A stretch of 64,000 bases of DNA from Haliotis rufescens. Its lineage: Eukaryota. The translations under genes were made by a program, and so were the position numbers. Numbering within the stretch: the first letter of the stretch is position 1; each line of letters begins with the position of its first letter. Below the pieces are notes generated by a model. That model ran no database searches. It was given only the letters and a program-made list of their open reading frames with translations, and was not told the origin of the DNA. Below, in pieces: positions 28,626-59,870 of this stretch. The stretch spans positions 1,054,001 to 1,118,000 of the forward strand of contig NW_025964301.1 of NCBI RefSeq assembly GCF_023055435.1, in the 5' to 3' direction.

Positions 28626-29122
28626 CTATTGGCCCGAGTCGTGCTGAGTGACGCCAGAGAGGAATGGATTTTGATTGGAGGCCGACGACCAACGACCCGA
28701 TTGGAAGACACTGTCAGTCTCATCGCTGGTAAATGACACCTCAGACCCGAAGGTCGACATTGGACTCATCGGTGAACGAGGAGACGCCAGAATACAGTCC
28801 AGGTCACTTCTTCGTATGGGACGCACTTGTTGCCTTGCTGCTGCAACAACTTCCGCGATGTCGTTCCGCTTGAGTTCAGAAAATGCATCAGTTAGGTCAT
28901 CCATGAGCTTGTCGGTGTCCCTTTCAGTATTCCTCCGTCTCCACTCAGTGAGAAGCTCGAGTCCTGGGTTGGATCGAATCTTGTCAGCCCTGTCAAATAT
29001 GGTGGTGATAGCGTCTGTGGGAAAGTTGAGTTCGAGGCCAACATTTCGCCATTCTGAATACGGTAAGGTATCTGCCAAGGCTGCCAGGCTTTTATCCGTC
29101 AGAAGGGGATGCTTGGCAATAA
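28626..29122 (-). CDS. Paralogue A last exon (death domain)
   Basis: Acceptor TTGCAG; death-domain W..LG.EL and LL.EW pattern. Confidence 0.85.
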
Positions 29123-32100
29123 CTGCAATGACAAGACGCCTTTGTTACATATAGGTAGTCCTGCACCATGACCGTGGAATATATTTTTTTTATGAAAAAA
29201 TAATAATCTAGAAATGCATACAAAAGCAAGTCTAGCCAGCTCAAGCTAGCTCTATTCCACATATCAGCATAGAGAAAAAATAATAATTTAGAGTCAAGAA
29301 GGATATTGTGTAATATAAGATTTCAGAGACTAAATGTTAGTCTAACATATAGGGGATACACATGGTTAATTTTTAAGGTGCCAATGCTTATCGTGAGACG
29401 CGGGATCGGGTGGTCAGGCTCACAGATTGGTTGATTGCATGTCATCGTATCCCAATTGCATGGACATGACGTCAATCTCTGGGTTGTCTTGTCCAGACTC
29501 TATTATTTACAGACCGCCTTCAAATAACTGGAAAATTGTTAAGTGCGGCGTTAAACAACAAATACATAAACAAAACAAAAAACATTTAAATCATAGTTCG
29601 AGAAATGTTATGTTGTAAGAATGAGCACTTGCATAAATCCGTATTTTGATGTTGCTAATATTGAATCTATATTTCTTTAAGTGGCGTATGGCAGTTGGTA
29701 TGATAAAGAAGGTTGATAGTTATATGAATGTACAACTTCTTTATTACAACAAATGCGACGTTTCGGTGTAGATACTCGGTAATAACACGTCACTTGTTTA
29801 ATAACGTTGTTGGTATCCACATCGAAACGTCGCTTTCATTGTAATAAAGAAGTTGTATAATCATAGAACTATCTCCATTGTTAAATCTATGTTGTTATAT
29901 TTAGAATCCATGTTCATGAATAAATTCTAATATTCAAAAACAACTTGATACCAAAATACGTGTCTAATTATGTCAGTGTAAACGTGATGACAAGTCAAGA
30001 AAAGGCGACACCCCGTCACAATGTGAAACCGATATAGACAAAGTGTAATTTATTGTTATTGGCCTACCACTTATCCCTATCAAAGAAAAAGTAACTGTGT
30101 TTTATGATAATTGATTACACAAAGTGTAGATTGTATCCGGCCACTGAAATTCACCTTCTAAAGACAAAAAATAAAAAAGAACTGAACTGAATTTGTTCAA
30201 TAATACGTCCGACCCAAACAAATTTAAATCAAATTTATTTATTTTTTGAGTGAGTGAGTATGGTTTTACGCCGCTTTTAGCAATATTCCAGCAATATCAC
30301 GGCGGGGGACACCAGAAATGGGCTTCACACATTGTACCCATGTCGGGAATCGAACCCGGGTCTTCGGCGTGACGAGCGAACGCTTTAACCACTAAGCTAC
30401 CCGACCGCCCCGAAAATATTTTTGAGTTACAAAACATTTACCTAAGCTAATTGATTAGCAAAAATCATTGAATAAAAATGCATAGCCAAAGTGTGATAAG
30501 GTCAAGGAATATAATGCAATACCTGATGGTTTCCGTGGAATTGAAGCCTCGATCGAAGGTTCCTGGGTTTGGGAATATTTTCTCTCTCTGGAAGAAACTT
30601 CTGTACCCCGGTGGCCTATGGCACTCATAGAACGTTGGTTCTTCTTGGCGGGCCTTTGCCTCGTGGATGGCTTCTTGTTGGCGGCCTTCTTCCACTCCAG
30701 GGGAAAGTGAACCTTGTGATCATGCTGGCCCCAGTAGAACCGCAAGCTGCCATCCTCCCCCGTGGATGTGAAGGGGATGACCACTTTATTGGTTCTGGAC
30801 ATTTGGTTGAAATAAAAAGAATTTGTTGCAAATGCCTTGTCATGAAGCTTAATGCATCCACCCAGAGCTAGTTTGATTTTAGTTCTGTCCCTGAGTTCGA
30901 TGTCCCTTGATCTGCTGTGCTTGATCTCTGTCATGCCATCGTTGGTGTGTAGTTCGACAGCTCTGTCCACCTTGGTGAACTCCACGCAGTCAACTAGGAT
31001 GTAGTTGACCCTCAGATGTTGGTCATAGTCAAGGAAGGTGAGGAGAACACACAGATTCAGCTTCCCGATGGCGTGTTTGGCCGCTCTGACTATCTCTCTG
31101 ATAGGACTGTGAGGTTGGACGGCGACACAGCAATACCTGAAACATCAGAGACACGACGTTATATACAATCAAGGATCATGGGTTCCTGGCATGGTCAAGG
31201 GACGCAACTCTGCAAAATGAAATGTGGCGCTAGAGACATCTTGGCCACACCTGTCGTATGGGTCCATGCACCAGTGATTATGAGTTAATTGACCTTGACG
31301 CCTCTTTTAAAAATATTTCAGGGCGTTTATGGTGGTTGTGATGGGTATCGCTATGGTCATAGTCGATGCGATCCAGGATCCAGGCACGGCTGAGGGAGGC
31401 AACTCTGTTAAGGTAATCCTACTATTACAGGTTGAGGAATGAAAGAGGGACAGTGATTGGGAACATAACAATAACCAACAATGTCTAACTAGACAACCCT
31501 CGTACATGCTACTACGTTGGAATTATAAGCGAGCTACCATTCGATATTCCAGGGGGTAGGGGAAAGGCTTGGGGGCAAGGATTTTGTTTGAAGATTAGAT
31601 ACTTTTTCAGCTACAGGTGCAAAACCAGATACTTTGATAATTAAGACTATGCGACTGATTATAAAACACCTTGCAACAATGTATTTTTTGTGTCATTTCG
31701 TTTTTTCGACAGTCTGAAGCATAATTTTTTAAGAATTAGCGAGACAATTTATTTTTTCAATAAAATCCCCCTCCCATAACCCAACCCCAACCCCCAACCC
31801 ACCCACCACCCCTCACCCCCAACCCCAAACCCCGCCCCCACCGCCAATATCAAATAATGGTCTATCCCATAGTAAACATATACAGATACTATTTTATGTT
31901 GTTTGTAAAGTCAAACAAAACTTTTCAAAATACAAAATAAAATCGTAAAAACAGACATAAATCATATTCATAAGCAAGCTGTTTTAACAAATTTAAAGAG
32001 GCTAGACCTACCAAAGAAAAACTATTGTGTGTTTATAAAAATAGAAATGTGTATGTTTTTGTCTGTTTTGCACACACAATATCGAATACGATAAACATGA

Positions 32101-35100
32101 GTAGACGTTGCACTCTGAAACTATGCGCTGGATTGACATACCTGTCGATAATGTATTCAGAAAACTACGATATGCAATCCAGCTGTCGCGTACTCGTCGT
32201 TTGGTCAATACATTATCGACTCGTAGTCTGCCCAGTAATCTGAGTGTAATATAGACAAATAGCATACTCATTTCTATGTTTCTGATCACATGTTTTTCTT
32301 TGGTTTGCCTGATAGGTTAAGTTCTTTAATAGAAAGTTTGAATAAACAAAGCGATTGGAATAACGTTTCCCTTAAGAGCTATATAGCTTAATTTACAACC
32401 TTGAACAACCTTTCTTAAGGCTCTAATCACCTAACGCAATAAAATCGGTTTAACATTCTTTCCCCGACAAGCAGTTTCAAAGGAGATGTCACGCGAAAAT
32501 CCCAGGTGAGTTGGTCGTGGGTGCACCTGTTGAGTGGTATTTGCAACTGGGAACGGATAAGGATCAAGTCAAAACCATCGAGGTTGTTGACTTTTGTACA
32601 AACTAAGACGCGAGTCGCTACCCGCCGAAATGAAAGACATGATTTAACCCACCAGCAGTGGGAAGGTCATGCGTCGAATTAGCTGTTTGCCTTTCGAAGG
32701 AAGCGTTATCCACTTGGCGTTGGGTGGTTGGTAAGTGCTAATCCTCACATGGAAGGAATTGTGAGATAGTGAAATTTGTGTTGTCGACATAACATGGTGT
32801 CACAGAGGTATATTCATACAAATGTGTGTCATTCGAGCAAATTGTTTCGTTGTGACAAGTCAATGGGTTCAGTTTTTTGTGGGGATACCTCTGTGACATC
32901 ATGTATTGTCAAGAAGAAAAGAGTTTACTGGTACGCAATGCCTTCAGTGTGAGGTTTAGAAGTTCCCAATCAACCCTCGTGTAACAATAGTCTTCTTGCT
33001 GTCTGTCGAGTTTCAGTCCATCAAATTTTGTCCATGTTCCAAATGTCACAGACGCCTGGTTATTCATAGGCGGATCTAGAGGGGTCCACATGTAGTATGC
33101 TGTATGCAGTAAAGTGACTGAGAGAGGAGTTTGATATTTTGGGCCCCTCCCTTTTGAAAATGTTGGATCCGCCCTTGTTATTGTACTGCCAACTCACAGC
33201 GAAACAATGTGCTCATCTGACTCAAGTTTTTGTGGATATGCCTCAACGGCAACATGTGATGCCCACAATACACTATGGTGCATTCCCTTCTGTGGGAGCA
33301 TGAGAACCTATCAATCAACCCTCATACACTATTGAAGTATCGAATTAACTGTGACCACGGTGGGGCACTTTAGTAATACGTAAGAGAACTACCATTTCTG
33401 TCTTGTCATGTGATTGTAATAGTAATTGTAATGACACAAGGTGTTCGTGGAAAGGTGAGCGTATCCTGCCCAACGGTTGCACCCGTCACAAACACATGCA
33501 AAGTCAATTATTCACCTTAAAAAAACGTCACTGACAACAAATCGTCCGATGTTTCCTGGTGTCCTTTTTTAATGCATGCGATACTGTCGGTAAGTGTTCA
33601 TTAAGAGTGTAAAAATGAGGGTTTAGCGTGTTGAAAAGCTTGAATTATTAATGCATGTGTTGCTGTCGGTAAATGTCCACTAAGAGTGTAAAAATGAGGG
33701 TTTAGCGTGTTGAAAAGCTTGGATTGTTGATACTTGTGTTGCTGTTGGTAAACGTCCACTAAGGGTGTAAAAATGAGGGTTTAGCGTGTTGAAAAGCTTG
33801 AATTATTAATGCATGTGTTGCTGTCGGTAAATGTCCACTAAGAGTGTAAAAATGAGGGTTTAGCGTGTTGAAAAGCTTGGATTGTTGATACTTGTGTTGC
33901 TGTCGGTAAGTGTTCATTAAGAGTGTAAAAATGAGGGTTTAGCGTGTTGAAAAGCTTGGATTGTTGATACTTGTGTTGCTGTCGGTAAGTGTTCATTAAG
34001 AGTGTAAAAATGAGGGTTTAGCGTGTTGAAAAGCTTGGATTGTTGATACTTGTGTTGCTGTCGGTAAGTGTTCATTAAGAGTGTAAAAATGAGGGTTTAG
34101 CGTGTTGAAAAGCTTGAATTATTAATGCATGTGTTGCTGTCGGTAAATGTCCACTAAGAGTGTAAAAATGAGGGTTTAGCGTGTTGAAAAGCTTGGATTG
34201 TTGATACTTGTGTTGCTGTCGGTAAGTGTTCATTAAGAGTGTAAAAATGAGGGTTTAGCGTGTTGAAAAGCTTGAATTATTAATGCATGTGTTGCTGTCG
34301 GTAAATGTCCACTAAGAGTGTAAAAATGAGGGTTTAGCGTGTTGAAAAGCTTGGATTGTTGATACTTGTGTTGCTGTCGGTAAGTGTTCATTAAGAGTGT
34401 AAAAATGAGGGTTTAGCGTGTTGAAAAGCTTGAATTATTAATGCATGTGTTGCTGTCGGTAAATGTCCACTAAGAGTGTAAAAATGAGGGTTTAGCGTGT
34501 TGAAAAGCTTGGATTGTTGATACTTGTGTTGCTGTCGGTAAGTGTTCATTAAGAGTGTAAAAATGAGGGTTTAGCGTGTTGAAAAGCTTGAATTATTAAT
34601 GCATGTGTTGCTGTCGGTAAATGTCCACTAAGAGTGTAAAAATGAGGGTTTAGCGTGTTGAAAAGCTTGGATTGTTGATACTTGTGTTGCTGTCGGTAAG
34701 TGTTCATTAAGAGTGTAAAAATGAGGGTTTAGCGTGTTGAAAAGCTTGAATTATTAATGCATGTGTTGCTGTCGGTAAATGTCCACTAAGAGTGTAAAAA
34801 TGAGGGTTTAGCGTGTTGAAAAGCTTGGATTGTTGATACTTGTGTTGCTGTCGGTAAGTGTTCATTAAGAGTGTAAAAATGAGGGTTTAGCGTGTTGAAA
34901 AGCTTGAATTATTAATGCATGTGTTGCTGTCGGTAAATGTCCACTAAGAGTGTAAAAATGAGGGTTTAGCGTGTTGAAAAGCTTGGATTGTTGATACTTG
35001 TGTTGCTGTTGGTAAACGTCCACTAAGGGTGTAAAAATGAGGGTTTAGCGTGTTGAAAAGCTTGAATTATTAATGCATGTGTTGCTGTCGGTAAATGTCC

Positions 35101-38100
35101 ACTAAGAGTGTAAAAATGAGGGTTTAGCGTGTTGAAAAGCTTGGATGGTATGTATGACTGTAAAAAGATGAAGAGAGAGGGCAACCTAAGTTGGAAGAAC
35201 TTGTCCCCTATTCCCGTTCACTTCTCGTGAATAGGTATGGCTAAACCAAAGAAACAACAAGGTGAAGAATCGCGAAGGTAGCATCAACATAATGGATGCA
35301 TACATATTCGCATCAAAGAGTACCCGCTGAAACTTTTCACTGGGATCGTGTAGGAATTTCCTCCCTGTTTCATAGGGGATACGTTAACGACGGTAACGTC
35401 GTCTTCGTCTTCGTCATCATCGGCGTCGTCATTCTTTTTCCAGTGTAGAAACATGACCCTGCCATGCCCCTTCACAAAGTCGCCATCGAGAGGAAGGCGT
35501 ATGTTAGCCTCTGTGTGGAGCTTCATCGGTGGATGCACTGTGAGAATGTTGGTGAACCCAACTATACAGCGGAACTTTTCATTATCACGTTTGTATTCCT
35601 CAAACCGCTGCTGGTCGACGATGTCCGTCTGAAGAAAGATATTCATACGTTAATGTTGGTTTGTTGGTTGGTTGGTTGGTTTGTTGTTTAACGCCGCACT
35701 CAGCAATATTCCAGGTATATGTCGGCGGTCTGTAAATAATCAAGTCTGGACCAGACAATCCAGTGATTAATGTCATGAACATCGATCCACGCAATTGAGT
35801 TACGATGACATGCATCAACCAAGTCAGCGAGCCTGACCACCCGATCCCGTTAGTCGCCTTTTACGACAAGCATAGTCACCTTTTACGGCAAGCATGGGTT
35901 TGCTGAAGAACTATTCTACCCCGCAATCTTCACGGGTCTATACATTAATGACAAAATGGTGACCTTTGATTTTATTTCTTGACGCATAGAAAGTTTTGTT
36001 ATTCGGGCTACAACTATGTGTTATAAAAGTACGAACACCTGGTGTCATCACTGCGTTTCGGTGATCCATTCATATCATTTTCACCGCTATTTTGCCTATG
36101 TTCCCAATGGAACCTGTTTCTGCGGAACGAGGCTGATTATTCTGCCTGCCAACCATGTGTTACGGTGAGTGAAAACTCAATTCTATGCTGATATCCAGAA
36201 GCTTATTTACGTTGTGAACAATAATATTTGTACTTTTTGACCAGAAAAGAGAGAGTGAATTTATACGCCGCTTTTAGCAATATACCAATCATATTATTTC
36301 CTGCGTGTTGAACCAACATTTTAACACGTAGGCAACGTCACCAGGCCTGATATAGCCTGAGGATATATACAACTCGAAGAAGTAGAACACTCGATTGGAA
36401 TTGGGGGTTCCTTAACTTCTTTTTAGTAGTATATTCCGAAATATATTCTGTTCAATGACGTGGTTCAAAAATTCAAATATACTTGCAACAATTTTCAACT
36501 TCGTTTCCTTCTTCAAAGAATCTTCTGGGAAGTCAATGGCAATTCTCTCGTCCTTCTCAGAGACAAACTTGTGACCTTTCGGCCCCACTGTGGCATATTC
36601 CGGTTTTAACTCCGCCGTCACACAAAACACGTCCATCTCTGTCAGCTTGCCATATACACAGCCGCCTTCCTGCAGGAAGGAATCAAGGACTGTACACTAC
36701 CATGCATGTATATTTACTGGATATTATGTTTTACCATGGGTTCAGACTGTCAGAGTTATCTTGTCACTGATACAGGCTTATGAGGCAGGGTCCCTTTCCA
36801 CAGAGTGATCGTAACTCCTATACTTTAACATAGACTTACGACAGTTGTAGCTCTCATATTTTAACATAGACTTACGATAGTCGTAACTCCCATACTTTAA
36901 CATAGACTTACGGCAGTCGTAACTCCCATACTTTAACAATGACTTACGATAGTCGTAACTCCCATTCTTTAACATAGGCTTAAGACAGTCGTAACTCCCA
37001 TACTTTTAAATATACTTACGACAGTCATAACTCCGATACTTAAACGTAGACTTACTGACAGGTGTCAGTCCTATACTTAACGACCATCCTTTGGAAACTC
37101 GACTTCATAAAAAAAGAAAGAAAAGTATTCCCAAACGGAGACAAAAAACGGTTGCGGTAGAGTGGGGCCGCCATCTTGTTTTCCAAAACCTGTACATCTT
37201 TTCGTTCCTTATCTGCAACCCTTCATCAAAACTGATATCCCATGCATAACATGACGTTACTTAACATAACTTAACGTGATTAAGGAAGAGTTATGACATG
37301 AACTGCATGTCACCATGAGTGTGTTTTGAACTAGCTGTTCTATGGTTATAACCCAAGCCCGAAGAGCAGCTTTATACATCGGAATACAGTTTTATTGTTT
37401 AACGTCACACGTAGCAATATTCCAGCTGTATGACGGCAGTCTGTAAATAATCGAGTCTGGACCAGACAATCCAGTGATTGACATCATGAGCATCGATCTA
37501 AGCAACTGGGATACGATGACATGCATCAACCAAGTCAGCAAGTCTGACCACCCGATCCCGTTCGTCGTTTCTTACGACAAGCATGGTTCGTTGAAGACCA
37601 ATTCTAACCAGGGTATTCATGAGGCACATCGGAATACAATACATGTTTCAGGGTTAAGGAATTGCAAACCGGGGCATACAAACCTTGTATTCTGCCGGTT
37701 CCAGGTGCCATTGTCCGCCAATCTTCATACAGTACGTAAACGTGTACAACACTTGGGGTGGAATGGATCGTTCTGGCATCTCCAGGGGAACAATCAGCTC
37801 CCCATCTGGAGGCAGAGTCTGGAGACTCTGGACAACCCTGTACACATCGGACACCAACAGCTGATCCTGGTGGAGTCCAAGCTGATCCAAGCACTCGTCG
37901 CGTTCCGCGGAGTGGAGAACCTTCACGTCAACGTTAGGGTCCTTTCTTTGTGTTGGAAGACCGAGGATAGTTTTCAAACGTTCTTTGAACTGAGAGAACA
38001 AACCTTGCTTTTCCTGGGTCTGACCAATCAGGTCTAATTTCGTCACATCTCTGAGTATGAAATAACAGGCATTAAGCAACTGGTATAATACAGTGTCATG

Positions 38101-40857
38101 TTTGTGATGATGATGAAAGCAAGAAGTTGAAAATTAAGTTGAAGGAAAATGTGGAGTGTGATAAGCTAAGATCGTGACGCAAACAGAATATCTGGGGTAG
38201 ATTCAAATGCATGTTGCATGTTTCTGGAGTACTGCTTTGTGTTGTCAGGCGAAATAGACATATGGTTTTTTTTCAAAATTTGTGAGAGACGGGTGCTACC
38301 GGTAGAGCAGGGTATGACCCTTGTCGCGAATACCAGTGCCACTGATTTTCAGTGGCCCATTCAAATAATTTTCACCGCTATTTTGCCTGTTACGCCCATA
38401 TAGAATACTAAACGAGCTCCCGTGTAATACCAATTTTACGAAACGAGTGAATAGTTGTGGTATGTGACGAGCGAAAGCGAGTCAGATACCACAACTATTC
38501 ACGAGTTTCATAAAATTGGTTTTACACGGGAGCGAGTTTAGTATTTTATTTATTACTAGCCATTTATAACGTTTTCAGATTTATACTGTTGAGTGTGAAT
38601 AGGCTGACACCTACACGATCCACGGCATAATCCAATTGAGTTTAACACAATAATACTTCAAGCACGTCAAAAGTTGAAACGTATGAATTCAATACCATAC
38701 AACGGCCCACTTTTAGAATTCAGGAGTCCGTTCCACAAAATTAAATTAGCGTTAAGGTTATCGCAGCTCACATACTTTAACTTAGACTAACGACTGTCGT
38801 GCTACAGTACGATGGCCTTGTGGAACGGGGCCTTGCAGCTCAAAGTTTACAATGACGTCACAATACCGATGACGTAATTTGTGGAATTTTGTTGCAAGAT
38901 CCTTCGGCGAAACAATGCCATATGACGTCAGCCTAGCAACAAGGTTGCTGGGGTCATCGAGTGTGCATAAGCTCCTCTCAGTGATCTATCATCTCCACAC
39001 GCAATGTCGTTGGATAAGCCAAGGGATGTTGAGAGCTTTCAATATTTGTTCTAGAAACGTGTTCGGAGAGTACATCAGCACGCGTTTTGGTATTACACAA
39101 TGTGTAATACAGCTGTATGTTTATTAAACGCGTGATCTCTTCACGGGCAAGTAATAAAATGGGATCTGTTTCGTCAGATAATCGAGACTAGTTGTTGCTG
39201 GCGTTGACGTTTTATATTTCACCTGATACAAGACAGAACCTTGACCTTCACGTGTTACTGTAAGTTAATAACTGTGCATGAAGAAAATTGTGATTTCATA
39301 TTTTACTTTGGCTAAATCATCACGAACATTCCGTACTCAGGAGTACTGAAACATGTAAAAGTTGTATTGAAATCATACTGTTATGTTGAGGAATAATGTT
39401 GAAATACGACTCCAACTCATAATTTACGTATTCTTATTAGAGTCCAAGAAAATGCCAGAAAACGAGGCAAAAGTGTCGGTCATGCAACAGGGAAGATCGT
39501 ATTGCAAGGTATAAACCACAATGCTACATGAAGTTTTATGATGAATATGTATATTAATTTATCAATATAGGGTTACTCTAGGTACACACAGAACAGAGAA
39601 ACAAATCTTTCTGGTCTCCGTTTCACTTTCAAGCCCCGCTTCTGTTCCTTAGTCAAGATCTTAAACTAAGGGCAGGTCACTCTAACGTCCAGAGCTACGC
39701 TCAGATGGTGTCCCAGGTCCTTTTTCTTATTCTATACGTGCAAACGTTTGTTTACAGCATCGCCTGCAGAACACCGTGCATGTTATTGTAACCCTGTCCT
39801 ACGGTTATGATTGTCATTGAGAAGTGAAATATGATCTATATTGTGGTAAGTTCTATTATTAAGCAACATTTAGACGGATCAGCCAAATGGCAAACAAAAG
39901 ATCATAGAAATTAGTCTTCGTGGTTGTAGTTATAGTATTAACATGTAATTAAAAGGAAGCCATTGAGCAATGTCAAAACGCTGGAAGATTTAAATCAACT
40001 TTAGTGGATTTCTCTTACTGCACACGACACTCGTGTTCTCACTACAAGTTAGGACTTTTGTGTAGAAAATAGGGGTGACTAACGGTCTGGAAATCACTAT
40101 TGCGATAACTATTGATATTGAAAGAAACTATCGCGATAACTATTGATATTGCAAGCAACTATTGCGATAAATATCTATAGTTTTCGTGTATCATTTTAGA
40201 TGGAGTTTTAAGTTGAATTATACCTTGGAACTGAAGCTTCCTTTGAATGTGATAACCATAACAACAAATAAAAATTAAAGTTTGAGATATGACTGATTTG
40301 TTTTTTCTTTACCCTAATTATTTAAGAAAAAGAAACTTCCACATTACCATGTGTAAATTACTACCACGCATGATCAAAAGAAAAACAAATTTGAACAGCA
40401 TTGCATGTATTTTATTGATATGGTAAATACAATCGAAACTATCGATATTCCTAACTGAAATCGATACTATTGATAGGAACCTGATTTAACAATCGATTTA
40501 TTGACTTTAAGTGCTTAACAAAAACAGCAATATATCGATATTTCGATTGATCGTGACACCCCTAGTAGAAATATTCAACAACCTATAAATAGCACAGTAA
40601 TAAGAGCCTCGTTTTGGCCATAAGCAGCGTTTGGCATGATCATTCGATGACTACCTTTAAATGATAAACACCAACCAACAAAATCGGGGAAAATACAACA
40701 CTAAAGAAGCTAGGATACCACGGTGAGTACTAAACTTGTGTCCCAGATCAACCACCAGATATTTCTACGACAAGAACGAAGTGTGTGGATATAAGGTATC
40801 AAATGGTTTAAGGTATCAAATGAGTCAGAAAGAGGATACTTACTCGTCACTCGCCAT
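28626..40857 (-). CDS. ZU5-ZU5-UPA-Death domain protein, paralogue A (DTHD1/PIDD-C-like). Exons 40857-40844, 38050-37684, 36669-36487, 35628-35324, 31136-30523, 29122-28626 (1980 nt, 659 aa)
   Basis: All junctions are phase-consistent (one GC donor). ZU5-like VGPKGHKFVSEKDERIAIDFPEDSL resembles ankyrin ZU5-B IGPEGG...AVFPEGAL. C-terminal death-fold exon LTDKSLAALADTLPYSEWRNVGLELNF...LELLTEWRRR...LKRNDIAE. Confidence 0.8.
30248..30411 (-). mobile_element. SINE A
   Basis: Family consensus; TATTTTTTGAGT duplicated at the flanks. Confidence 0.85.
30523..31136 (-). CDS. Paralogue A UPA-like exon
   Basis: Homologous to 47309-47940 and 60242-60807 (SRSRDIEL, RTNKV). Confidence 0.85.
33572..35147. 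repeat. 79-bp satellite (~20 copies) with alternating variants, in paralogue A intron 4
   Basis: GAGTGTAAAAATGAGGGTTTAGCGTGTTGAAAAGCTTG recurs at 79-bp spacing (33605, 33684...). Confidence 0.95.
35324..35628 (-). CDS. Paralogue A ZU5-B exon
   Basis: GFTNILTVHP...IRLPLD...VMFLHW...VKSFS. Confidence 0.85.
35655..35938 (-). mobile_element. SINE-like family C (other minus copies ~37393-37620, 49528-49770, 54115-54390, 56880-57225)
   Basis: Family consensus. Confidence 0.8.
36487..36669 (-). CDS. Paralogue A ZU5-A/ZU5-B junction exon
   Basis: CTGCAG acceptor; GCAAGT donor. Confidence 0.8.
36808..37080. repeat. 36-bp minisatellite
   Basis: TCGTAACTCCCATACTTTAACATAGACTTACG recurs. Confidence 0.85.
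37684..38050 (-). CDS. Paralogue A ZU5-A exon
   Basis: LLVSDVYRV...LIVPLEMP; AAG|GTTTGT donor. Confidence 0.85.
38405..39158. mobile_element. Element with a long 5' hairpin (38405-38546), inserted into an older repeat
   Basis: ~140-bp imperfect palindrome; TTATTACTAGCC / GGCAAGTAATAA inverted pair. Confidence 0.55.
40070..40564. mobile_element. hAT-like MITE
   Basis: TAGGGGTG...CACCCCTA ends, ATCGATA-rich subterminal repeats, 8-bp TSD GTAGAAAA/GTAGAAAT. Confidence 0.7.
40844..40857 (-). CDS. Paralogue A first coding micro-exon (MASDE)
   Basis: ACCATGG Kozak context, GA|GTAAGT donor, phase 2 matches the next exon. Confidence 0.6.
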
Positions 40858-45244: not shown

Positions 45245-45639
45245 CTAATTGACATCAGGATAAATAAAATGTCCATCCCGAACCGTCGGAAGCCGCATCA
45301 CTGCTTTTTGCCGACCAGCACGTCCATTGAAGTCATTTCTCCGGATCTCGCGCCGCTCCCCCGCCGCCAGCCGCAACATCTCTGCCACGTCGTGGCGTCC
45401 GATCTCCTCCAGTGCAGCCACAAGGTCATTGATGAGGCTCTCAGATGTCCCGCGACTGATGCTCTTCCACTCCCTGAGGAGCTCAAACCTCGGGTCGGAC
45501 TTCCGTCGCTCCGCCTTCTCAAATATCGAACATATTTCATCAGTGGTGAAGTTCAGCTCTAACCCCATGCTTCTCCAGACTACCTGAGGAAGAGAATCGC
45601 TGAGCGCCGAGAGACTCTTGTCTGACAGAACCGGATGGA
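45245..45639 (-). CDS. Paralogue B last exon (death domain)
   Basis: ATTTCAG acceptor; homologous to A and C death exons. Confidence 0.85.
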
Positions 45640-48600
45640 CTGAAATGCATGTAGCGACAATATTACACTTTTCATACAGTATCTACAGGATAGAATAATT
45701 TGGAGGGGTACGGGTGACCCAGTCGTCTAGGGCGCTGTAATTCGCTATGTAGAGTTACGTCCCTTGGGCTCACCAGAAACCTATGATCATGGGTTCGATT
45801 CCTGGTTTGCCACGATTACTAGAATGTTTCAGGGATGTCAGCACCATACCCGTACTCGTGGGGTTCACCAAAGTAATAAACATCTGAGACCTGCGTCACC
45901 CAGGCTTCCCTCCCACATAACAGGAACACTGTTCAAAGTGGCGTTAAACCCAACTCACTCACTCCTACCTAGTTCAATAGTTCGTACAAGTCTGACATAT
46001 GTATATGTAACGTATGGAATACTGTAAGGGACATTCTCGCGATCTCGCGTTCTCGCGATCTCGACCTTTGGAAACGAGGTAAATATGCCCAAAACACGAG
46101 ATTGCGAGATCGCGAGAATGTCCCTTACAGTATTCCATAGTAACGACAATTATGTTGAAGTTCCTTGACATGACACCTGGCCCATGAGTACAATACAGTC
46201 AACGAACAGGCATCACTGCATATAAAAACTGGTTAAATTTTAAACGCGTGCATGCGTTGATCCATTCAAATCATTTTCACTGCTATTTCGCCTTTTCCAC
46301 CCAATGGAATCTATTTCAGTGGATAAATAATTGGGACTGATTATTCACCGGCGTTACGTTTGACATATTGATATTTAGCCTGCGAAGTTGTATATATTTA
46401 TCATTGTGGGTAACACATAGCTTAATAACACACAGAGACACACACGTTGAGATTTTCGGCACTAAAGATATTGCAGTCACGAAAACAGCTTAAGTGAGTC
46501 GGAGTTTACACCGCTTTCAGCAATATTCCTGCCATATTGCGACGGGAGAGTGGGAGGACACCAGACATTGGCTTCACACATTGTACCCATTGAGAATCGA
46601 ACCCGGCCTTTGGGCGTGGCGAACCAAGGCTTTATCATGTCCACGACTCATGCTCAAACATTGTCAGATGATGGTTACAGCATTCAAGGCCTCAGTAAAG
46701 TTTTCAAAATATGTTATGGTTGACTATGGAGGACATTTCTGAATTAATTTTTACGAATCAGTGACCAAAATAATGACCTATGCAATTCCCTAAGTTTGAC
46801 TTATAGGATATGGGACGGTGGGGGCGCTTAGTGGTTAAAGCGCTCGCACGTCACGCTGAAGACCCGGGTTCGATTCCCACATGGGCACAAAGTGTGAAGC
46901 CCATTTCTGTTGTCCGCAACATATTGCTGGAATATTGCTAAAAGCGGCGTAAAACCATACTCACTCCCTAACATATCGTCAGGTGAGCAAATGACTTGCC
47001 TTTGCATGTGTTTGTGATGGGTGCCACTGGTGGGACAGGATACGTTCACCTTTTCGCGAACACCTGATCTCATCACTGTTTGATAGTGATGCTTAAACAG
47101 ATTCTCGTGATACTGGGAATCGTTCAATCGGGTGTGCATTTAGCAAAGATTTCCTATGACAATGGAACGGACTTTGTCGCTTTATAAAAAAAAGATTCAA
47201 TTATGTGTTCATAATGCAGGCCCCGGTGGCAGAATCTAAATCATGTTGTGGTCAATGTGTTATACTGTGTATCGTACATCAATCAGCAGTGTTCGATCTA
47301 CTACACACCTAATCGATGATTCTGACTGCCAGTGACGTCACGTTGATGGAGGTCTAATGGTGATGTGGAGGAGACATTCTCCTCTGAAGACGCGCCATTG
47401 TTACCAACATTCCTGGAAGTTAATGTGCTGCTCCTACTTTGACTGGACTTTCTGTGTTGGGCCTTGCTTCTCGATGAGGAACCCAAGGTTTGTTTGTCCA
47501 AGAAAAAGAAGACCTGGTGATTCTCTCGTTCCCACGTATACCGCACAATGCTCATAGAACGTCCATTGGATTTGACCGGCATGGTTATTTTGTTTGTTCT
47601 AGCATAGCAGTCATATTTTAGAGAATTCACTTTCAGATTTTTATCTAAGTACGTCAAATTCCCTTCCAGGGAAACTTTAATTCGTGTTTTTCTCTTCAGT
47701 TGAATGTCCCTTGATCGACTCAGCTCTATCTCCCTCATACCATCTTGTTGATGCCTCTCTATAACGCTGTTAACTTTATAGAAGTCTACACAGTCCATCA
47801 ACAGTCGGTGCATCTTGTAATTTGTATCATAGCTGCTGAGGGTGAGAATATTGCACATGCTTCTCTTTCCAGAGATGAACTCAACTGACGTGGCGATGTC
47901 CTCGAGAGATGTCTTCTTGGGAACACACACGGGGGCGTACCTGGAATGTGTAGGATTTGATACACGTTGTTACAAATATGGGAACACAGTGGGTGAAATT
48001 GGTTTAACGCCGATAACGATTATTGCACAATAGCGACATGCGAGTACGTGTGTGTGGCTGTTTGTACTGGTCCGAACTGATGCCGGTAATACAGTGCTCG
48101 CCCATTGAGATACCATGCCGCAGTTTTAATATTAATACCCCACTCAGACACAGTGTACTGACTCAGAGGTGACAAGTCCGTGTTTTATTTCCTTAATGCC
48201 AACGCCATCTTTTAACGTCATTTGGTATGACGCGGTCGGGGTTCGAACCACCGACCTTCCGCTCTCCGGGCAGACGCTCCATCCTTTAGACCACTAGAAT
48301 TGATGCAGGTTTCAGACGTTTACCACTTTGGTGAAACCCAGGTATGGTACGGAAAACCATAGAATCACAATCAGAGCGACTTTCATGTTTAACACTGTAG
48401 TCATATTTATGTCCCATTCGTCACCACTCGCCCCTTTCCGTAACCTGCAACGCTATTCGGCTTGTCTCGGAATAACACGAGTTGGTCACGAATGATTTAT
48501 GCCCATTGAATGCGTTCGTGACCAACTCGTGTTATTCCGGGACAAGCCGAATAGCGACTCGTGCCCCTCACGCGGCCATTATTGCGACCGGGATCCGTCT

Positions 48601-50226
48601 TAGCGCAAACGGGCATACCTAAAACAATTGTTAACTCGTTGCGTAATGCTTCACATATATTTCCCCAGATATTATATATATTTCAGATGCAATTTAAAGC
48701 ACATCGGGACAGTATACAGTATGATTGAACACATTTAACTGTATCTTGGGTATATTTTAGATTCAAAATTTATGTAAAATCAAAAATTATTCCTGAGGGA
48801 TTCTTTGACGAAGAACTTGAAATCATACGCGCATTCTGATTGGTTTGTCGTATTTTCGCACATAACATTCATCGATAGGGGGACGAGTCTACTTGCAGGT
48901 TACGGAAAGGGGCGAGTGGTGACGAATGCATTGAATGCAGACACACGTATACTGACATACCAACATGGACATACATACGTACGAGCTGAAGGAAGTGACG
49001 TCTACACTGTATGAGTTCTTGGGTTCTTCCTTCGGGAGGTTACAGATCACCTCTGCCCCTCGATCTTCCTCAGATTCCTTCCAGTGAACAAACAACACTT
49101 CAGAGTTGTCTCCCTTTGCATGCAAGTCTAACGGGAGACACACTTTTGCGGGACGTTTCAGTTCCATTTCAGGTGTTACAGCAAGGATGTTTGTGAATCC
49201 CTGGATGCAGGTGAAACTGTCATTTAGTTTGAGATACCCTTCATACCGCTCCTTGTCTACCACCATGGACTGAAACCAGAATTATGCGTTTACTTTACTT
49301 TTGTTTGCTTGTTAACGCCGCACTCGCACACATTGAGAGGTTACGCTGGTAAGTTTTAGCCTCTTTAAGGATACATTCTTTTAACCAACAGTTGATCCTT
49401 GAAACCCAACGATCCCATTCTGGCTCCTTTCTGTCCCATGTAAATATTATCATTGGAAGCGCAGTTCAATGACACAAGATCTGTAAAACGCCCTGTAAAT
49501 ATGTTGTATTGTGTATTCAAACAAGTAATGTTTGTTTGTTTGTTTGTTTGTTGTTTAACGCCGCACTAAGCAATATTACAAGTATATGACGGCGGTCTGT
49601 AAATAATCGAGTCTAGACCAGGCAATCCAGTGACTGACATGAGCGTCGATCTAGGCAATTGGAATACGATGGCATGCATCAACCAAGTCAGCAAGTCTGA
49701 CCACCCGATCTCGTTAGTCGCCTCTTTCGACAAGCATTGGTTGCTGAAAATCAGTTGTAAACCGTATCCTAGCGGCCATAAACCTATATCAGTTGTATAT
49801 ACTAGTACCTATATAAGCTTGAGAATCCGGGTCTGTTTGTCCCCACAAGAGTCTGATTAAGATAAGCTAGTTACAATTGGGATATTGATGACATTTGTCT
49901 GAAAAAACCCACACTAATAGCAAAAATATTATTTTACCTCTATTACAAATGTACTGAATTTCATTTTAGCATTGTAAGACATGTGAAATTATAATGTATA
50001 AAAGTGAAACATCTGTATGTGGTCATCCTGTTTCACAAGTCCGGACCGCCTCTGTGATCGATCCCCGACCGTGTCATACCAATAGACGTTAAAATATGTT
50101 ACTTGTTGTTACCCTGTCTGGCTCTCGGCATTAAGTGGCTAAAACAGAGATTGGTCGGAGTCGGCTCGGAGTCAGTATACTGTGTCTGAGTGGGATATTC
50201 ATGTTAAACTGGTATCTCAGTGTGCT

Positions 50227-50295
<69 letters not shown>

Positions 50296-53200
50296 ATGCA
50301 CGTCACCTCTACGAAGCTGAAGCTGGCAGAAGAAACTGACGTAATATGTAAACTTAAATATAAGATCGAAGGTGAGCCCTCAGTTGTCGATTGTACACTG
50401 TGCCTGCTAAAAAGGGTACCCCAAGTCTTACCTCAAGAATATTAAATTTAGTTCGAAAAAGCGCATGTGCTTATAAACTGGTAGTGCTGGTAGTGCAACG
50501 GAATCCTAAAAAGTGTATGATCATACAGCGAGCATTTCTTTCAAGAAAAGGGAAAATGATACGTTTTTCATAGCGGCATTGTGTAAGCATGTTTTGTGGC
50601 GGGCGAATGAGTGGATAATAACCCGTTTTGTTTCTGAGGCGAGAAACACAAACAGATACTGATTCATAAAATTGACTGTTTAGTATAGATAGTTTTAATA
50701 TTCGGACTATTTGCATGGACGGTATTGTGTACACAAAGTATTGAACTGAAGGCTCGGAAATTAGATCTGTAATACATAGGTTTTTCATTTTACCTAGAAA
50801 ATATAACAACGACCTTCGTAGATTATTGGAAAATGATATGTCCATATATATACACATGCATAGAACTACCTTAAACTGGAAGTCTGTGTCTTTGTCCACT
50901 GCTCCCTCGGGGAAATATACAGTGATGCGCATATGTATACTAATGCATAGAACTACCTTAAACTGGAAATCTGTGTCTTTGTCCATTGCTCCCTCGGGGA
51001 AATATACAGTGATGCGCATACATAAACTAATGCATAGAACTACCTTAAACTGGAAGTCTCTGGTTTGTCCACTGCTCCCTCGGGGAAATATACAGTGATG
51101 CGCATACATAAACTAATGCATAGAACTACCTTAAACTGGAAGTCTGTGTCTTTGTCCACTGCTCCCTCGGGGAAATATACAGTGATGCGGCCGTCGGTCT
51201 GGGAGACAAACTTCCCTCCTTCAGGACCAATCCTCTTACTTTCCACAGAGGCAGCTCCAGATTGGGGGTTCTCAGCCACCACACCAAAAGCATCAATCTT
51301 CTTCACCTTACCGTGGATCTTTCCATCCACCTGAACATGAATCCATCGTTAGTGGCTACTATCTTCACGTACAGGTATACACAAAGGAAACCTTACCGTG
51401 GATCTTTCCCTCCACCTGAACATAGACCCATCGTTAGTGGCTACTATCTTCACGTACAGGTATAAACAAAGGAAACCTTACCGTGGATCTTTCCCTCCAC
51501 CTGAACATAGATCCATCGTGAGTGGCTACCATCTTCACGTACAGGTATACACAAAGGAATTGTTACCGTGGATCTTTCCCTCCACCTGAACATAGATCCA
51601 TCGTGAGTGGCTACCATCTTCACGTTCAGGTATACACAAAGGAAATGTTACCGTGGATCTTTCCATCCACCTGAACATAGATCCATCGTTAGTGGCTACC
51701 ATCTTCACGTACAGGTATACACAAAGGAATTGTTACCGTGGATCTTTCCCTCCACCTGAACATAGATCCATCGTGAGTGGCTACCATCTTCACGTACAGG
51801 TATACACAAAGGAAATGTTACCGTGGATCTTTCCATCCACCTGAACATAGATCCATCGTTAGTGGCTACCATCTTCACGTACAGGTATACACAAAGGAAT
51901 TGTTACCGTAGATCTTTCCCTCCACCTGAACATAGATCCATCGTGAGTGGCTACTATCTTCACGTACAGGTATACACAAAGGAAACCTTACCGTGGATCT
52001 TTCCCTCCACCTGAACATAGATCCATCGTGAGTGGCTACTATCTTTACGTACAGGTATACACAAAGGAAACGTTACCGTGGATCTTTCCATCCACCTGAA
52101 AATAGATCCATCGTGAGTGGCTACCATCTTCACGTACAGGTATACACAAAGGAATTGTTACCGTGGATCTTTCCCTCCACCTGAACCTAGATCCATCGTG
52201 AGTGGCTACTATCTTCTTATACAGCGACGTGCATGCACGTATAACTTCAAAGATGTACACATTATAAAAAGCAAAACAAACAGCGAAACAAATTCACAGT
52301 ACTTTTACCTTTGAGTATGGCGGTGGGCTAGCCTAGTGGTTAAAGCGTTCACTCGTCACGCCGAAGATGCGACCCGATTCCCGATCGGGTACAATGTGTG
52401 AAGCCTATTCCAGGTGTCCTCCGCCGTAATATTGCTGGAATATTGCCAACAGCAGCGTAAAACCATACTCACCCATTCACTTACTCACCTTTGAGTAAAT
52501 ATTTCTCCTGTCTGATCCCGAAAAATATTGTCGTAAAGAAAGAAATATTACATCCATTTGGGATAATGTATTTATTAAACTATACCTTAATATTTTCTCA
52601 TGATTTGTTTCAGATCATCAATAAGGCACCAGCACATATTGCTTCACACAAATGCCAACGTTCATTCAGTTGATTAATGTATCAATATACAGGTAGTACA
52701 TGTACATTACCCGAGGGCGGTGGGTAGCCTAGTGGTTAAAGCGCTCGATCGTAACGCCGAAGACCCGGGTTCGATTCCCGACATGGGTACAATGTGTGAA
52801 GCCCATTTCTGGTGTCCCCCGCCGAGATATTGCTGGAATGTTGCTAAAAGCGGCGTAAAACCCTACTCACTCGCTCATACATATATCACAAATATAACGT
52901 ATACCCACCACTCACATTACCCGATGCAAGGTAGCTACAGTAAAACCAGCGTTATATTAGAGGAAACAAATATATACTATTTTCTGACCACATACATGGT
53001 ACATGCAGACCATCAGTCATATGTGGCTTTAAGCCAATGACTCATATTCTACTTCAAACATCAACGCCAGAGAATAATCAGTATCAGTTACAGATTTCAT
53101 TAGGCGTAACATGCAACATAGTGATGATTATATGAATGGATCACTGAAAATCAGTGATGACACCAGGTGTTCGCGCAATGGGAAGGCATGAACTTCCCGA

Positions 53201-56200
53201 CCGATGGCACCCGCCACTCACAATTTACATAAACAATACGTGTTTATTTCTTGTTTAACGCCCCAACCATCAATACTCCTGTCATACGTAGGCAATCAAT
53301 CGAGTCTGGATCACTGGCTCGAGTTCAGACATACAGTAAAGTACGGTTAAAACGAACTCAAAGGGACTACTAATTTTAGTTCGTTATAACAGTAGTTCGT
53401 TATAAGCATATATACAGCATAATACAGCAAATAGTCTGGACCAAAAAAGTAAGTTCGTTATATCCGTCAGTTCGTTATAAGCGTGTTCGTTATAACCGTA
53501 GTTTACTGTAATTTCGGTGTGTTTACCGGAGCGTCAGTTGGTGTCTTGTGCCAACAGCCATCATATTTAAGCCACAACCAGAAGGAACAGCCTGTCCTGC
53601 ATCTCTCGGGTACGTCAACGGGGACGACAATATCAGCGTGGGGGTCGTCAACATCCTCGCTCCACCGCATCTTGTAGATCTTGGACACCAGCAACTGGTG
53701 CTCCCCGAGATTCATCTCCTGTACACGCATGCGCAAACTACGATCATTTATGTTGCGGATGGACAATTAATACGAAGTTTGTCTTAATCAGATGTTAATA
53801 AATATATTTAAGTGTATTGGTTGGCCCAAACTGTTTGAACACACTGTACAGACTTATGCCGCAGCTGATTAATGTTCAAACATTAGCAGCCCCAATTAGT
53901 GAGTTATTCGCCACAATCATAATACTTATGTCAGCACTATACCCATGCTCACTAGCTCGACAAAAAATGAATAAAAATAAAAATAATAAAAAATGAAAGA
54001 TGGTCAGGTATTTAGGTACAAATAAAATGCCGCGCAAAGAAAAAGTATACACCCATGTTCGATGGTGGCTAAAATGAAACAAACAACAAAAGGCTATTCG
54101 ATGGTGATGTTGGGTTGATTTGTTGTTTAACGCCGCACTCAGCAATATTCCAGCTATATGACGACGGTCTGTGAATAATCGAGTCTGGACAAGACAATCA
54201 AGTGATTAATTTCATGAGCATCGATCCACACAATTGGAATCGATGACATGCATCAACCAAGTCAGCGAGCCTGACCCCCCGATCCCGTTAGTCGCCTTTT
54301 ACGACAAGCAGAGTCACCTTTTACGGCAAGCAGAGTCACCTTTTACGACAAGCAGAGTCACCTTTTACGGCAAGCAGAGTCACCTTTTATGGATGGTGAT
54401 GTATTTGATACGGGTATGATACTTGTGTTTTAAGACCTGTTTTCAGACTTGTAACGTTTGTAATTTTGGGGTCACATCCAATTTTTAATCGCAGACTTTC
54501 TTTGCCCGGCAGTTAAGTTCGTTGTTGCACCATTTTGTTTTCTACAAACTAGTTTTTTGTTTGATAACACAACATTGCATAACCCTGTATAGCTGAATGT
54601 TGATATGATGTGCAAATCTAAAAGCTCATTTAGGTAAAATGCAAGTTGTCAGTCATTCGAATAACTTTCCTTACAAATTTTCAAAGGTTTCTTTAACTTT
54701 CAAATGGGCCAATATCAGTTGGCCCTAAAAACCTGTAAAATACTTCCTCCTATATTATACTACTCAAAAAATATTAAGGACCACCCGATTCCTTCATATT
54801 ACTGTAGTTAATCTGTTATGCCATGAGAAGATTGGTGGTTCTTGAACCTTTTTGAGTAGTATATAACTTAAGTAAAATGAGTGTTTGAGTATGTAAATAT
54901 TTGCCTGTCTGATGTCATCGTCAGTTTCTGATGGTGTGTCATCTCCTTCTGCAGCAAGATCAAAGGTCACATCGCTGGAACGACATAACAAATCATTTAT
55001 ACCAAAGGCGCGAAAAACCCATACCTGTTCAAATGAGAATTATGCAAATGAGTGAACAAATCATCTTAACACATAAATCGGATGCTATAATGGTTTAATA
55101 ACTAAATTCTCACGAGTCCGATTTACTAAGATTTACGCCCGTGGAGATGCGGGTTAGCATTGGTTTCAGCATCCGATGCTTGTCGTAATAGGCAACTAAC
55201 AGGATCCGGTAGTACGTCTCGCTGACTTGGTTTGATGCATGTGATCGTATCCCAATTGCGGGGATCGATGCCCATCGTATTAATCACTGGATTGTCTGGT
55301 CCAGACTCGATTATTTACAGACCGCCGCCATTGAGTTGGAATATTGCTGGGTGCGACGTTAAACAACAAACAAACTATGGTTTAGTTTTCAGATTCATAC
55401 TCCGATGTTAAATATATTTCACTATGCGCATTCTATAGATTCACATACAAAGTATATGTACATCATTCGTGGCGTATTAAATTACCTTACTCATGTTACC
55501 CATCCTAGCGAATCACGTGGGGTAGGAGACACATGCAAAACACCGAGGTGGGTGTACGTTATATTTGTGACATATGTATGAGTGAGTGAGTATGGGTTTA
55601 CGCCGCTTTTAGCAATATTCCAGCAATATCACGGCGGGGGACACCAGCAATGGACATGTGTATGAATTAAGACTAATATATCTTTATATATGTATGAATT
55701 AGGACTAACATGTCTTTATATATAAAACATAAACTGTATTTCAATGTTTAATATATAACGTCAACGGCAGAGAATAATCAGTGTCGACGATCTGCCGAAA
55801 CAGATCATATACGGCGTAAAATTCAAAACAGCTGTGAAACATTTTCCTTGATGCAATAGTATTTGAGTGAATGGATATATATGGGTGAATATTGGTCACG
55901 TACACATCAGCAATATTACAGCTAGTTGCGGCAAGGATCAACATTTTTACCTTACTAATCAAAATACAAATGAAAACGTGGTTATGACCAAGATCACTAA
56001 AATATCAGTTTCACTGTATGGAATTTCAACATCGTGGCTGCCATTATCTTCAGTATGACACTAGTGCGGTGTCCTTCATGTATCCTTTGAGGCAGTGGGG
56101 TAGCCTAGTGGATAACGCGTTCGTTGTCATACCGAAGGCTCGGGTTCTATTCCCCATTGGGTACGATGTGTAAAGCCCATTTCTGGTGTCCATTCCCTGA

Positions 56201-59430: not shown

Positions 59431-59870
59431 CTAAGCAGAAGACAAAGAACTGCTGTCGCCCGATGTCTCATTGCTTGAAAAAAAAGGTCCAAAACTAAAG
59501 CTTGGTTCTGGACCAAATGGGGGAATTGAGGACGGAGATCCACAATCTAGGTCACTTCTTCGTATTGGACGCGAATGTTGTCGTGCTGAATTGAGAACGC
59601 CAACAATGTCGTTTCGCTTGAGTTCAGCAAATGCAGCTATGAGGTCGTTTATCAGTTCATCTGGATTCCGGAGTTTATTTCTCCTTCTCCATTCAGTAAG
59701 AAGCTCCAAGCCAGGGTTGGATTTCATTCTCTCTGCTTTATCAAATATGGAGGTAATAGCATCAATCGAAAAGTTGAGTTCAAGACCCACACTTCTCCAT
59801 TCTGAATGTGGTAATATGTCCCCAAACGCTGCAAGACTTTTGTCGGTTAGAATTGGATGCATCTCCGCGC
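59431..59870 (-). CDS. Paralogue C last exon (death domain)
   Basis: TTTGTAG acceptor; HPILTDKSLAAFGDILPHSEWRSVGLELNF. Confidence 0.85.

What the first reader, a model, noticed from the sequence alone, without database searches (positions are those of the whole stretch)
35324..35345. PIDD-type autoproteolysis position kept as [S]FS in all three paralogues
Seen: the end of ZU5-B reads VKSFSGY (A, ~35324), VTSFSSY (B, ~48983) and VTSFSRY (C, ~61200), conserved even in divergent B, with an intron just after it. Known: PIDD1 self-cleaves at HF|S motifs at the ends of its ZU5 domains, and the second site (VTHFSWY) releases the UPA-DD fragment. Here Phe-Ser is retained but His is replaced by Ser, and the first-site equivalent (TEMDVF / KKIDAF) lacks Ser. 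Inference: either a variant self-cleaving switch that releases UPA-DD, or a non-cleavable PIDD-like decoy.
Basis: partly seen in the sequence, partly recalled or inferred. Interest (0 to 1): 0.7.

Follow-up and report, generated by a model that had tools for sequence, protein, structure and literature searches.

The report
NLRP1-type self-cutting site in abalone proteins
Three neighbouring abalone genes encode relatives of the cell-death scaffold PIDD that keep, at the cutting position, the Ser-Phe-Ser motif known from the immune sensors NLRP1 and CARD8 plus a likely helper histidine, so they likely cut themselves once and would then carry a releasable death-domain half.

Summary
The motif is real: three spliced minus-strand paralogues (abalone, ZU5-ZU5-UPA-death domain, no LRR) read VKSFSG|Y, VTSFSS|Y and VTSFSR|Y across a shared phase-2 intron. 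A structure model puts the Phe on the scissile residue of NLRP1 (F1212), and a profile alignment puts SFS on PIDD1 site 2. Site 1 is dead (HFS = EMD/KID). SF|S is not a damaged HFS but the published cleavage motif of NLRP1/CARD8, where the first Ser is dispensable and an upstream His is essential. All three paralogues keep a His on the matching upstream strand (FLHW/FVHW/FLHW); so do 105 of 120 vertebrate PIDD1, including 3 lamprey proteins that read EFS. The nearest gastropod relatives have HFS with Arg upstream, so the His likely moved. Best reading (0.62): single-site autoproteolysis of the NLRP1/CARD8 type. Against: no cleavage data, His register inferred, two paralogues keep FS with no His, and the co-variation is not significant once kinship is allowed for. 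Known chemistry in an unannotated mollusc family, from a phylum reported to lack PIDD.

The parts
35326..35334 (-). Gene A Ser-Phe-Ser (S287-F288-S289); predicted scissile bond F288|S289
   Evidence: model residue 143 = F288 is the last residue aligned to cleaved NLRP1 ZU5, F1212
35443..35445 (-). Gene A His250 (FLHW), inferred general base; 38 residues before the Phe, about 12 of them an acidic loop
   Evidence: aligns to PIDD1 LLHG; end of strand E245-252
36631..36639 (-). Gene A dead site 1 (E-M-D in place of HFS)
28626..40857 (-). Gene A, 659 aa, ZU5-ZU5-UPA-DD; coding exons 40857-40844, 38050-37684, 36669-36487 (GC donor), 35628-35324, 31136-30523, 29122-28626; equals P0001 (named H. rufescens LOC124137817)
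   Evidence: five exons on one spliced contig (X8)
31137..35323 (-). Phase-2 GT-AG intron just after Phe-Ser in gene A; same position in all 8 paralogues examined in this genome
48985..48993 (-). Gene B Ser-Phe-Ser
49084..49086 (-). Gene B upstream His (FVHW), 32 residues before the Phe
45245..53718 (-). Gene B, exons 53718-53527, 51330-51130, 49269-48983, 47940-47309, 45639-45245 in compatible phases; 5' end uncertain (candidate exon near 55024-54905); RefSeq holds it as two models (P0022 164 aa, P0005 436 aa)
51292..51300 (-). Gene B dead site 1 (K-I-D)
61202..61210 (-). Gene C Ser-Phe-Ser
61310..61312 (-). Gene C upstream His (FLHW), 35 residues before the Phe
59431..63549 (-). Gene C, exons 63549-63183, 62109-61927, 61495-61200, 60807-60242, 59870-59431; first coding exon lies beyond the window (L014:4471); P0208, 621 aa
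   Evidence: exon-only contigs in X5
62071..62079 (-). Gene C dead site 1 (E-M-D)

Best explanation
The three genes encode LRR-less ZU5-ZU5-UPA-death-domain proteins whose Ser-Phe-Ser sits at the ZU5 scissile position and likely works as a single NLRP1/CARD8-type self-cleavage site, in which the second Ser would attack the Phe-Ser bond with help from the upstream His. Shown: motif, splice, fold, position, dead site 1, conserved His. Inferred: the buried Phe strains the backbone; His250 (A numbering), in the place of NLRP1 H1186/CARD8 H270, activates Ser289; N-O acyl shift and hydrolysis give a 288-residue ZU5-ZU5 piece and a 371-residue UPA-DD piece, held together by the last ZU5 strand as in CARD8/NLRP1; loss of the N-piece would free UPA-DD to oligomerise. 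The general-base His likely moved from the -2 position to the neighbouring strand on the branch leading to this gene cluster.
For: (1) Position: with ZU5-B folded alone (mean pLDDT 84) the alignment to cleaved human NLRP1 ZU5 ends at model 143 (F288) = 1212 (6x6c_E, Z 6.9, rmsd 3.9, 117 aligned); rat NLRP1 7crv_C and the GAIN chains 6v55, 7qu8, 4dlq, 5kvm, 8hc0, 8vti also end at 143; end offsets give F968 (7crw_A), Nup98 863 and UNC5b L677 if ungapped. (2) hhalign to vertebrate PIDD1: 99.8%, E 5e-28; SFSG = HFSW of site 2 and FLHW = LLHG. (3) SF|S cleaves in CARD8/NLRP1; S295Q had no effect, S295A a small one; H270 is crucial (PMC3210808); rat H942 lies next to S969 and its mutation abolishes cleavage. 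His-to-Phe spacing there is 26; here 38/32/35 with an acidic loop, and 27-28 in loopless relatives. (4) 105 of 120 PIDD1 carry the upstream His, including all 3 lamprey proteins, which read EFS at site 2. (5) Among 38 cluster representatives the upstream His is in 10 of 16 with x-F-[S/T/C], 0 of 4 with HF[S/C] and 1 of 18 that lost the motif (Fisher 6e-4, uncorrected). (6) Tree: the cluster (100/99) is sister to GFS/Arg + HFS/Arg (99/93), with limpet HFS/Arg outside (96/85). (7) The fold does not need Phe-Ser: ankyrin reads V-S-A here (end offset) and UNC5b has Leu. (8) Paralogue D has F-C, the other nucleophile.
Against: No biochemical or proteomic data. The His250 = H1186 register rests on strand order and spacing; the tools gave only end residues. 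With kinship allowed for, the His/motif association is not significant (4-5 independent pairs, median p 0.25-0.5; almost never in the opposite direction). 6 of 16 x-F-[S/T/C] representatives, and paralogues F (DFS) and G (GFS) in this genome, have neither His, so Phe-Ser can persist without it. The acid of the NLRP1 triad (E1195; CARD8 E279) seems to be Asn or Cys in A-C by alignment A2 (register uncertain). PIDD1 itself is reported to need the -2 His (PMC9162469). The best structural matches are non-cleaving ankyrin ZU5-B (Z 16.8 against 8.4-8.6 for NLRP1/CARD8). The model shows one unbroken strand 280-296 with no kink by DSSP, which a prediction may not capture either way.
Confidence: 0.62

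Rival explanations
1. Non-cleaving scaffold or decoy: Phe-Ser and His-Trp are kept for packing, both sites are dead, and the protein acts whole like ankyrin or UNC5, or as a dominant-negative partner of cleavable paralogues such as the HFS copy.
For: Ankyrin is the best sequence and structure match in the PDB; UPA is ankyrin-like (33 bits against 2 or less for PIDD1); site 1 is dead; FS persists with no His in paralogues F and G; 18 of 38 representatives lost the motif; triad acid not evident.
Against: Known non-cleaving ZU5s do not keep Phe-Ser; the position varies among Ser, Cys and Thr, the nucleophile set; the upstream His appears on the branch that lost the -2 His.
Confidence: 0.28
2. Self-cleaving, but the upstream His is incidental: backbone strain from the buried Phe is enough, as the weak effect of the Nup98 His mutants suggests.
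For: Nup98 H862A/Q only slightly affected cleavage (as cited in PMC3210808); GFS, DFS and SFC relatives keep Phe plus nucleophile with no His.
Against: His is essential in NLRP1/CARD8; HW is one of only 5 invariant runs among A, B and C.
Confidence: 0.1

Closest known systems
NLRP1 / CARD8 FIIND (ZU5-UPA)
   Same: SF|S at the end of ZU5, same structural position (F288 = F1212); His on an upstream strand; one site only; UPA plus death-fold domain downstream.
   Different: Two ZU5 domains, death domain instead of CARD, no NACHT/LRR; 7-11% identity in structural alignments; no Pfam FIIND match; acidic loop after the His; triad Glu not evident.
PIDD1 (vertebrate)
   Same: ZU5-ZU5-UPA-DD order; profile match 99.8%; both ZU5 score higher to PIDD1 than to ankyrin (ZU5-B 43-62 against 22 bits); upstream His shared with 105 of 120 PIDD1.
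   Different: No LRR; site 1 dead (HFS in 120 of 120 PIDD1); site 2 SFS (HFS in 117 of 120, EFS in 3 lampreys); UPA closer to ankyrin; falls outside the PIDD1 clade; multi-copy.
Ankyrin ZU5-ZU5-UPA-DD tandem
   Same: Same four-domain order; best PDB match (4d8o Z 19.9 whole model, 16.8 ZU5-B; 14% identity); ankyrin-like UPA. Some orthologues are auto-named 'ankyrin-1-like'.
   Different: No ankyrin repeats; ankyrin lacks Phe-Ser and the upstream His at ZU5-B.
UNC5CL / GAIN / Nup98 autoproteolytic domains
   Same: Same fold superfamily and same scissile position; UNC5CL keeps activity (PMC10084454).
   Different: Nup98 and PIDD use HFS with the His at -2; the abalone proteins show no transmembrane helix or receptor part.

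Membership tests
FIIND-type autoproteolytic ZU5 (works like) | SF|S at the ZU5 scissile position | tested here: met
FIIND-type autoproteolytic ZU5 (works like) | Catalytic His about 26 residues upstream, adjacent to the Ser | tested here: inconclusive
   His present on the matching strand in A, B, C; distance and residue register not obtainable
FIIND-type autoproteolytic ZU5 (works like) | Acid of the triad (E1195/E279) | tested here: inconclusive
   Asn/Cys by alignment A2 in A-C, Glu/Asp in D and E; register uncertain
FIIND-type autoproteolytic ZU5 (works like) | Observed self-cleavage, lost on Ser-to-Ala | not testable with these tools
   needs expression or proteomics
NLRP1/CARD8 family (membership) | Pfam FIIND with C-terminal CARD | tested here: not met
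   Pfam gives Death only for P0001; C-terminal domain matches death domains
PIDD1 (membership) | N-terminal LRR | tested here: not met
   659 aa, ZU5-A begins near residue 60, no LRR in Pfam
PIDD1 (membership) | ZU5-ZU5-UPA-DD order | tested here: met
PIDD1 (membership) | HFS at site 1 | tested here: not met
   EMD/KID/EMD
PIDD1 (membership) | Groups with PIDD1 in a tree | tested here: not met
   mollusc family and PIDD1 lie on opposite sides of a 97/93 branch; unrooted, one ankyrin-free alignment, long branches
PIDD1 (membership) | Death domain binds RAIDD/CRADD | not testable with these tools
   needs a binding assay
Ankyrin (membership) | N-terminal ankyrin repeats | tested here: not met
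   none in Pfam scans of P0001, P0002, P0004, P0005

The most novel reading that the evidence does not exclude
This expanded mollusc family is the missing functional counterpart of PIDD: an LRR-less, single-cut platform that converged on NLRP1/CARD8 chemistry by relocating its catalytic His, and whose released UPA-DD nucleates CRADD/caspase-2, which molluscs have without a recognised PIDD. The abalone paralogues (HFS/Arg, SFS/His, NFC/His, GFS/Arg, DFS/Arg) would be a natural series showing how the two known catalytic layouts interconvert, with non-mammalian PIDD1 (both His) as the intermediate.
Probability: 0.17. Interest if true: 0.75.

Novelty: new variant of a known kind. Interest (0 to 1): 0.43.

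Why it matters
It links the two known ZU5 self-cleavage layouts (His at -2 in PIDD1/Nup98; His on the neighbouring strand in NLRP1/CARD8): abalone paralogues show each state, and most non-mammalian PIDD1 proteins sampled carry both histidines at site 2, with lampreys keeping only the upstream one. That is testable with a few point mutants. A recent survey found CRADD and caspase-2 but no PIDD in lophotrochozoans (PMC11463336); this unannotated ZU5-ZU5-UPA-DD family is a concrete candidate for that gap, or for a CARD8-like tripwire in mollusc immunity. If the proteins do not cleave, the finding is only a conserved core strand in an ankyrin/PIDD-like scaffold.

Tried and rejected
Pfam finds no ZU5, UPA or FIIND in A-C; a FIIND search of the own genome gave nothing, nor did its control, and Peptidase_S68 gave nothing over cut-off: neither shows absence. 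Sequence searches of the PDB with A1 and A2 reached ankyrins only, so no residue-level alignment to NLRP1/CARD8 was obtained. Flavivirus envelope hits in the whole-model Foldseek search (TM about 0.1, rmsd over 30) were rejected as noise. A complex prediction of A's death domain with a putative abalone CRADD death domain gave no verdict (score 0.01, alignment not used). phmmer of A's death domain hit only ankyrin-3 (E 0.019). No listed holder was on record as RNA; contigs cannot rank expression, and cover of gene B was thin. The earlier-findings index returned nothing in 3 look-ups. Papers not held: PMC3408201, PMC4258472 (Liao 2014, the ZU5/GAIN/Nup98 comparison most likely to discuss the two His positions) and PMC1782377; the FIIND alignment in the supplement of PMC3210808 could not be read. 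Rejected: 'His-to-Ser means inactive' (CARD8 data); 'true PIDD1 orthologue' and 'ankyrin' (membership rows); 'intron artefact'.

Full report
Observation. A six-frame scan finds V.SFS.Y exactly three times, all on the minus strand: 35340-35320, 48999-48979 and 61216-61196. Each is the end of an exon, with a GT donor two bases into the codon after Phe-Ser. Gene A is the 659-aa protein P0001, named Haliotis rufescens LOC124137817 by its source and 100% identical over the query exon. Spliced contigs confirm the joint for A in 3 of the 4 runs laid, one contig carrying five exons; C is covered by exon-only contigs in one run, B thinly. These runs are only guessed to be RNA.

Anatomy. The AlphaFold2 model (mean pLDDT 79, pTM 0.65) matches the ankyrin-B ZU5-ZU5-UPA-DD tandem best (Foldseek E 3e-21; Z 19.9, rmsd 9.7, 364 aligned), then UNC5b, NLRP1 and CARD8. 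Pfam sees only the death domain. There is no LRR and no ankyrin repeat. A profile of mollusc relatives aligns to vertebrate PIDD1 at 99.8% (E 5e-28): SFSG falls on HFSW of site 2, and site-1 HFS falls on E-M-D (K-I-D in B). By domain, ZU5-B scores 43-62 bits on six PIDD1 proteins against 22 on one ankyrin, whereas UPA scores 33 on the ankyrin and 2 or less on PIDD1. The family is related to both and a member of neither.

Position. ZU5-B folded alone (residues 146-300, pLDDT 84) aligns to the cleaved human NLRP1 ZU5 fragment over model 1-143 and chain 1093-1212 (Z 6.9, rmsd 3.9, 117 aligned). Model 143 is F288 and NLRP1 is cut before S1213. Rat NLRP1 (7crv_C) and six GAIN chains also stop at model 143, and end offsets give rat F968, Nup98 863 and UNC5b L677 if the last residues are ungapped. 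Only end residues are reported, and the best Z (16.8) is to non-cleaving ankyrin.

SF|S is the published cleavage motif of CARD8 and NLRP1. In CARD8, S297A abolishes cleavage, S295Q has no effect, S295A little, and H270 is crucial (PMC3210808; parts 1-3 of 5 read). Rat NLRP1 H942 lies next to S969 and is required (bioRxiv 2020.08.13.250241, passages); a triad E1195-H1186-S1213 is described (PMC9700037, passages); a review states that the -2 His is essential in PIDD1 and NUP98 but exchanged for Ser in NLRP1/CARD8 without effect (PMC9162469, passages). The His lies 26 residues before the Phe in all three. A, B and C carry FLHW, FVHW and FLHW, with the His 38, 32 and 35 residues before the Phe; the excess is an acidic, low-confidence loop, and loopless relatives have 27-28. 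HW and SFS are two of five invariant runs among A, B and C. That His250 is the H1186 equivalent is inferred from strand order and spacing, not from a residue-level alignment.

Comparative evidence. In the best 120 of 473 PIDD1 hits (birds, reptiles, amphibians, cartilaginous and lobe-finned fish, lampreys; no mammal listed), site 1 is HFS in 120 of 120. Site 2 is HFS in 117 and EFS in the 3 lamprey proteins; the column matching FLHW is His in 105, including all 3 lampreys, Arg in 11 and other in 4. The representative search gave 78 hits; 39 cover the ZU5-B core, and one was dropped for gaps at both positions, leaving 38. The upstream His is in 10 of 16 with x-F-[S/T/C], 0 of 4 with HF[S/C] and 1 of 18 that lost the motif (that one scored by eye). 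Fisher p is 6e-4 for kept against lost and 0.09 for xFS against HFS, ignoring kinship; with independent pairs on the tree none of three tests is significant (4-5 pairs, median p 0.25-0.5), though they almost never go the opposite way. In the tree the cluster A, B, C, D (100/99) is sister to abalone GFS/Arg and HFS/Arg proteins (99/93), with a limpet HFS/Arg protein outside (96/85), so loss of the -2 His and gain of the upstream His map most simply to one branch. In this genome I found eight paralogues with the same intron: A, B, C and E SFS/His, D NFC/His, F DFS/Arg, G GFS/Arg and H HFS/Arg (a lower bound). F and G show that Phe-Ser can persist with no His, which counts against reading activity from the motif alone. 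The triad acid appears as Asn or Cys in A-C (register uncertain).

Mechanism. Most likely (0.62) each protein cuts itself once at Phe|Ser by N-O acyl shift, using the upstream His. The pieces would stay associated through the last ZU5 strand, as CARD8's do, and removal of the ZU5-ZU5 piece would free UPA-DD. With site 1 dead there is no PIDD-C/PIDD-CC two-step. Rivals: a non-cleaving scaffold or decoy (0.28) and His-independent cleavage (0.10). Trigger and partner are unknown. A survey of lophotrochozoans found CRADD but no PIDD (PMC11463336, passages), and this genome holds a CARD exon 14 kb upstream of a death-domain exon whose best PDB match is CRADD (E 1e-7; the CARD itself matches APAF-1 best, weakly). 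A role upstream of CRADD is a hypothesis only.

Novelty. The chemistry and motif are known. I found no paper on this family or on the two-His state of PIDD1 in eight searches, but the library lacks most subscription papers, including Liao 2014 and Tinel 2007, and one supplement was unreadable. PMC3482391, PMC8195603, PMC10084454 and PMC11760013 were seen as passages only; the first notes a sponge expansion of ZU5 proteins. Verdict: real feature, new variant of a known kind, interest 0.43.

Noticed in passing
window 37684-38050 vs 63183-63549 and 36487-36669 vs 61927-62109: Genes A and C are 97.5% and 94.5% identical in the two 5' (ZU5-A) exons but only 72-79% in the ZU5-B, UPA and DD exons: looks like gene conversion or exon exchange of the 5' half.
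   Followed up: partly
window 50856-52216 and 55005-55030: Gene B's middle exon is flanked by tandem repeats that copy its acceptor (85 bp x 10.7) and its donor (87 bp x 3.9); RefSeq splits B into two models. One laid contig lacks one base at 55012 in the candidate first exon, which would open a frame from the ATG at 55022. B may be mis-assembled, polymorphic or decaying.
   Followed up: partly
window 36487 and 61927: The middle exon of A and C ends in a GC donor (GC-AG intron).
   Followed up: no
window about 59433: Gene C stops 30 codons earlier than its H. cracherodii orthologue; the rest of the old frame is still readable behind the stop. The death domain is intact.
   Followed up: partly
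P0079, P0087, P0088 (lamprey PIDD1): Lamprey PIDD1 has EFS at site 2 with the upstream His kept; most other non-mammalian PIDD1 sampled have both histidines.
   Followed up: yes
G000:C379:2740488-2763958 (L033, L062, L064): A putative CRADD (CARD and RAIDD-like DD exons, minus strand) lies beside a second CARD exon on the plus strand whose best PDB matches are RAIDD and CED-3. At least 91 CARD matches genome-wide.
   Followed up: partly
L008 (G000:C1:17590910-17594179) and L012 (G000:C2:46109178-46112450): UNC5-like ZU5 genes: L008 is an intronless TM-ZU5-UPA-DD frame of 664 codons with an intact HFS; L012 has HFT in the next exon.
   Followed up: no
L015:9721-9909 and L016:99-308: A degenerate death-domain remnant of the same family, with stops, lies just upstream of paralogue D.
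   Followed up: no
window 33569-35146: 79-bp x 20 (158-bp higher-order) tandem array inside the intron that follows the SFS of gene A.
   Followed up: no
window 21368-22156 (-): A 263-codon open frame with no Pfam match; possibly transposon-derived.
   Followed up: partly
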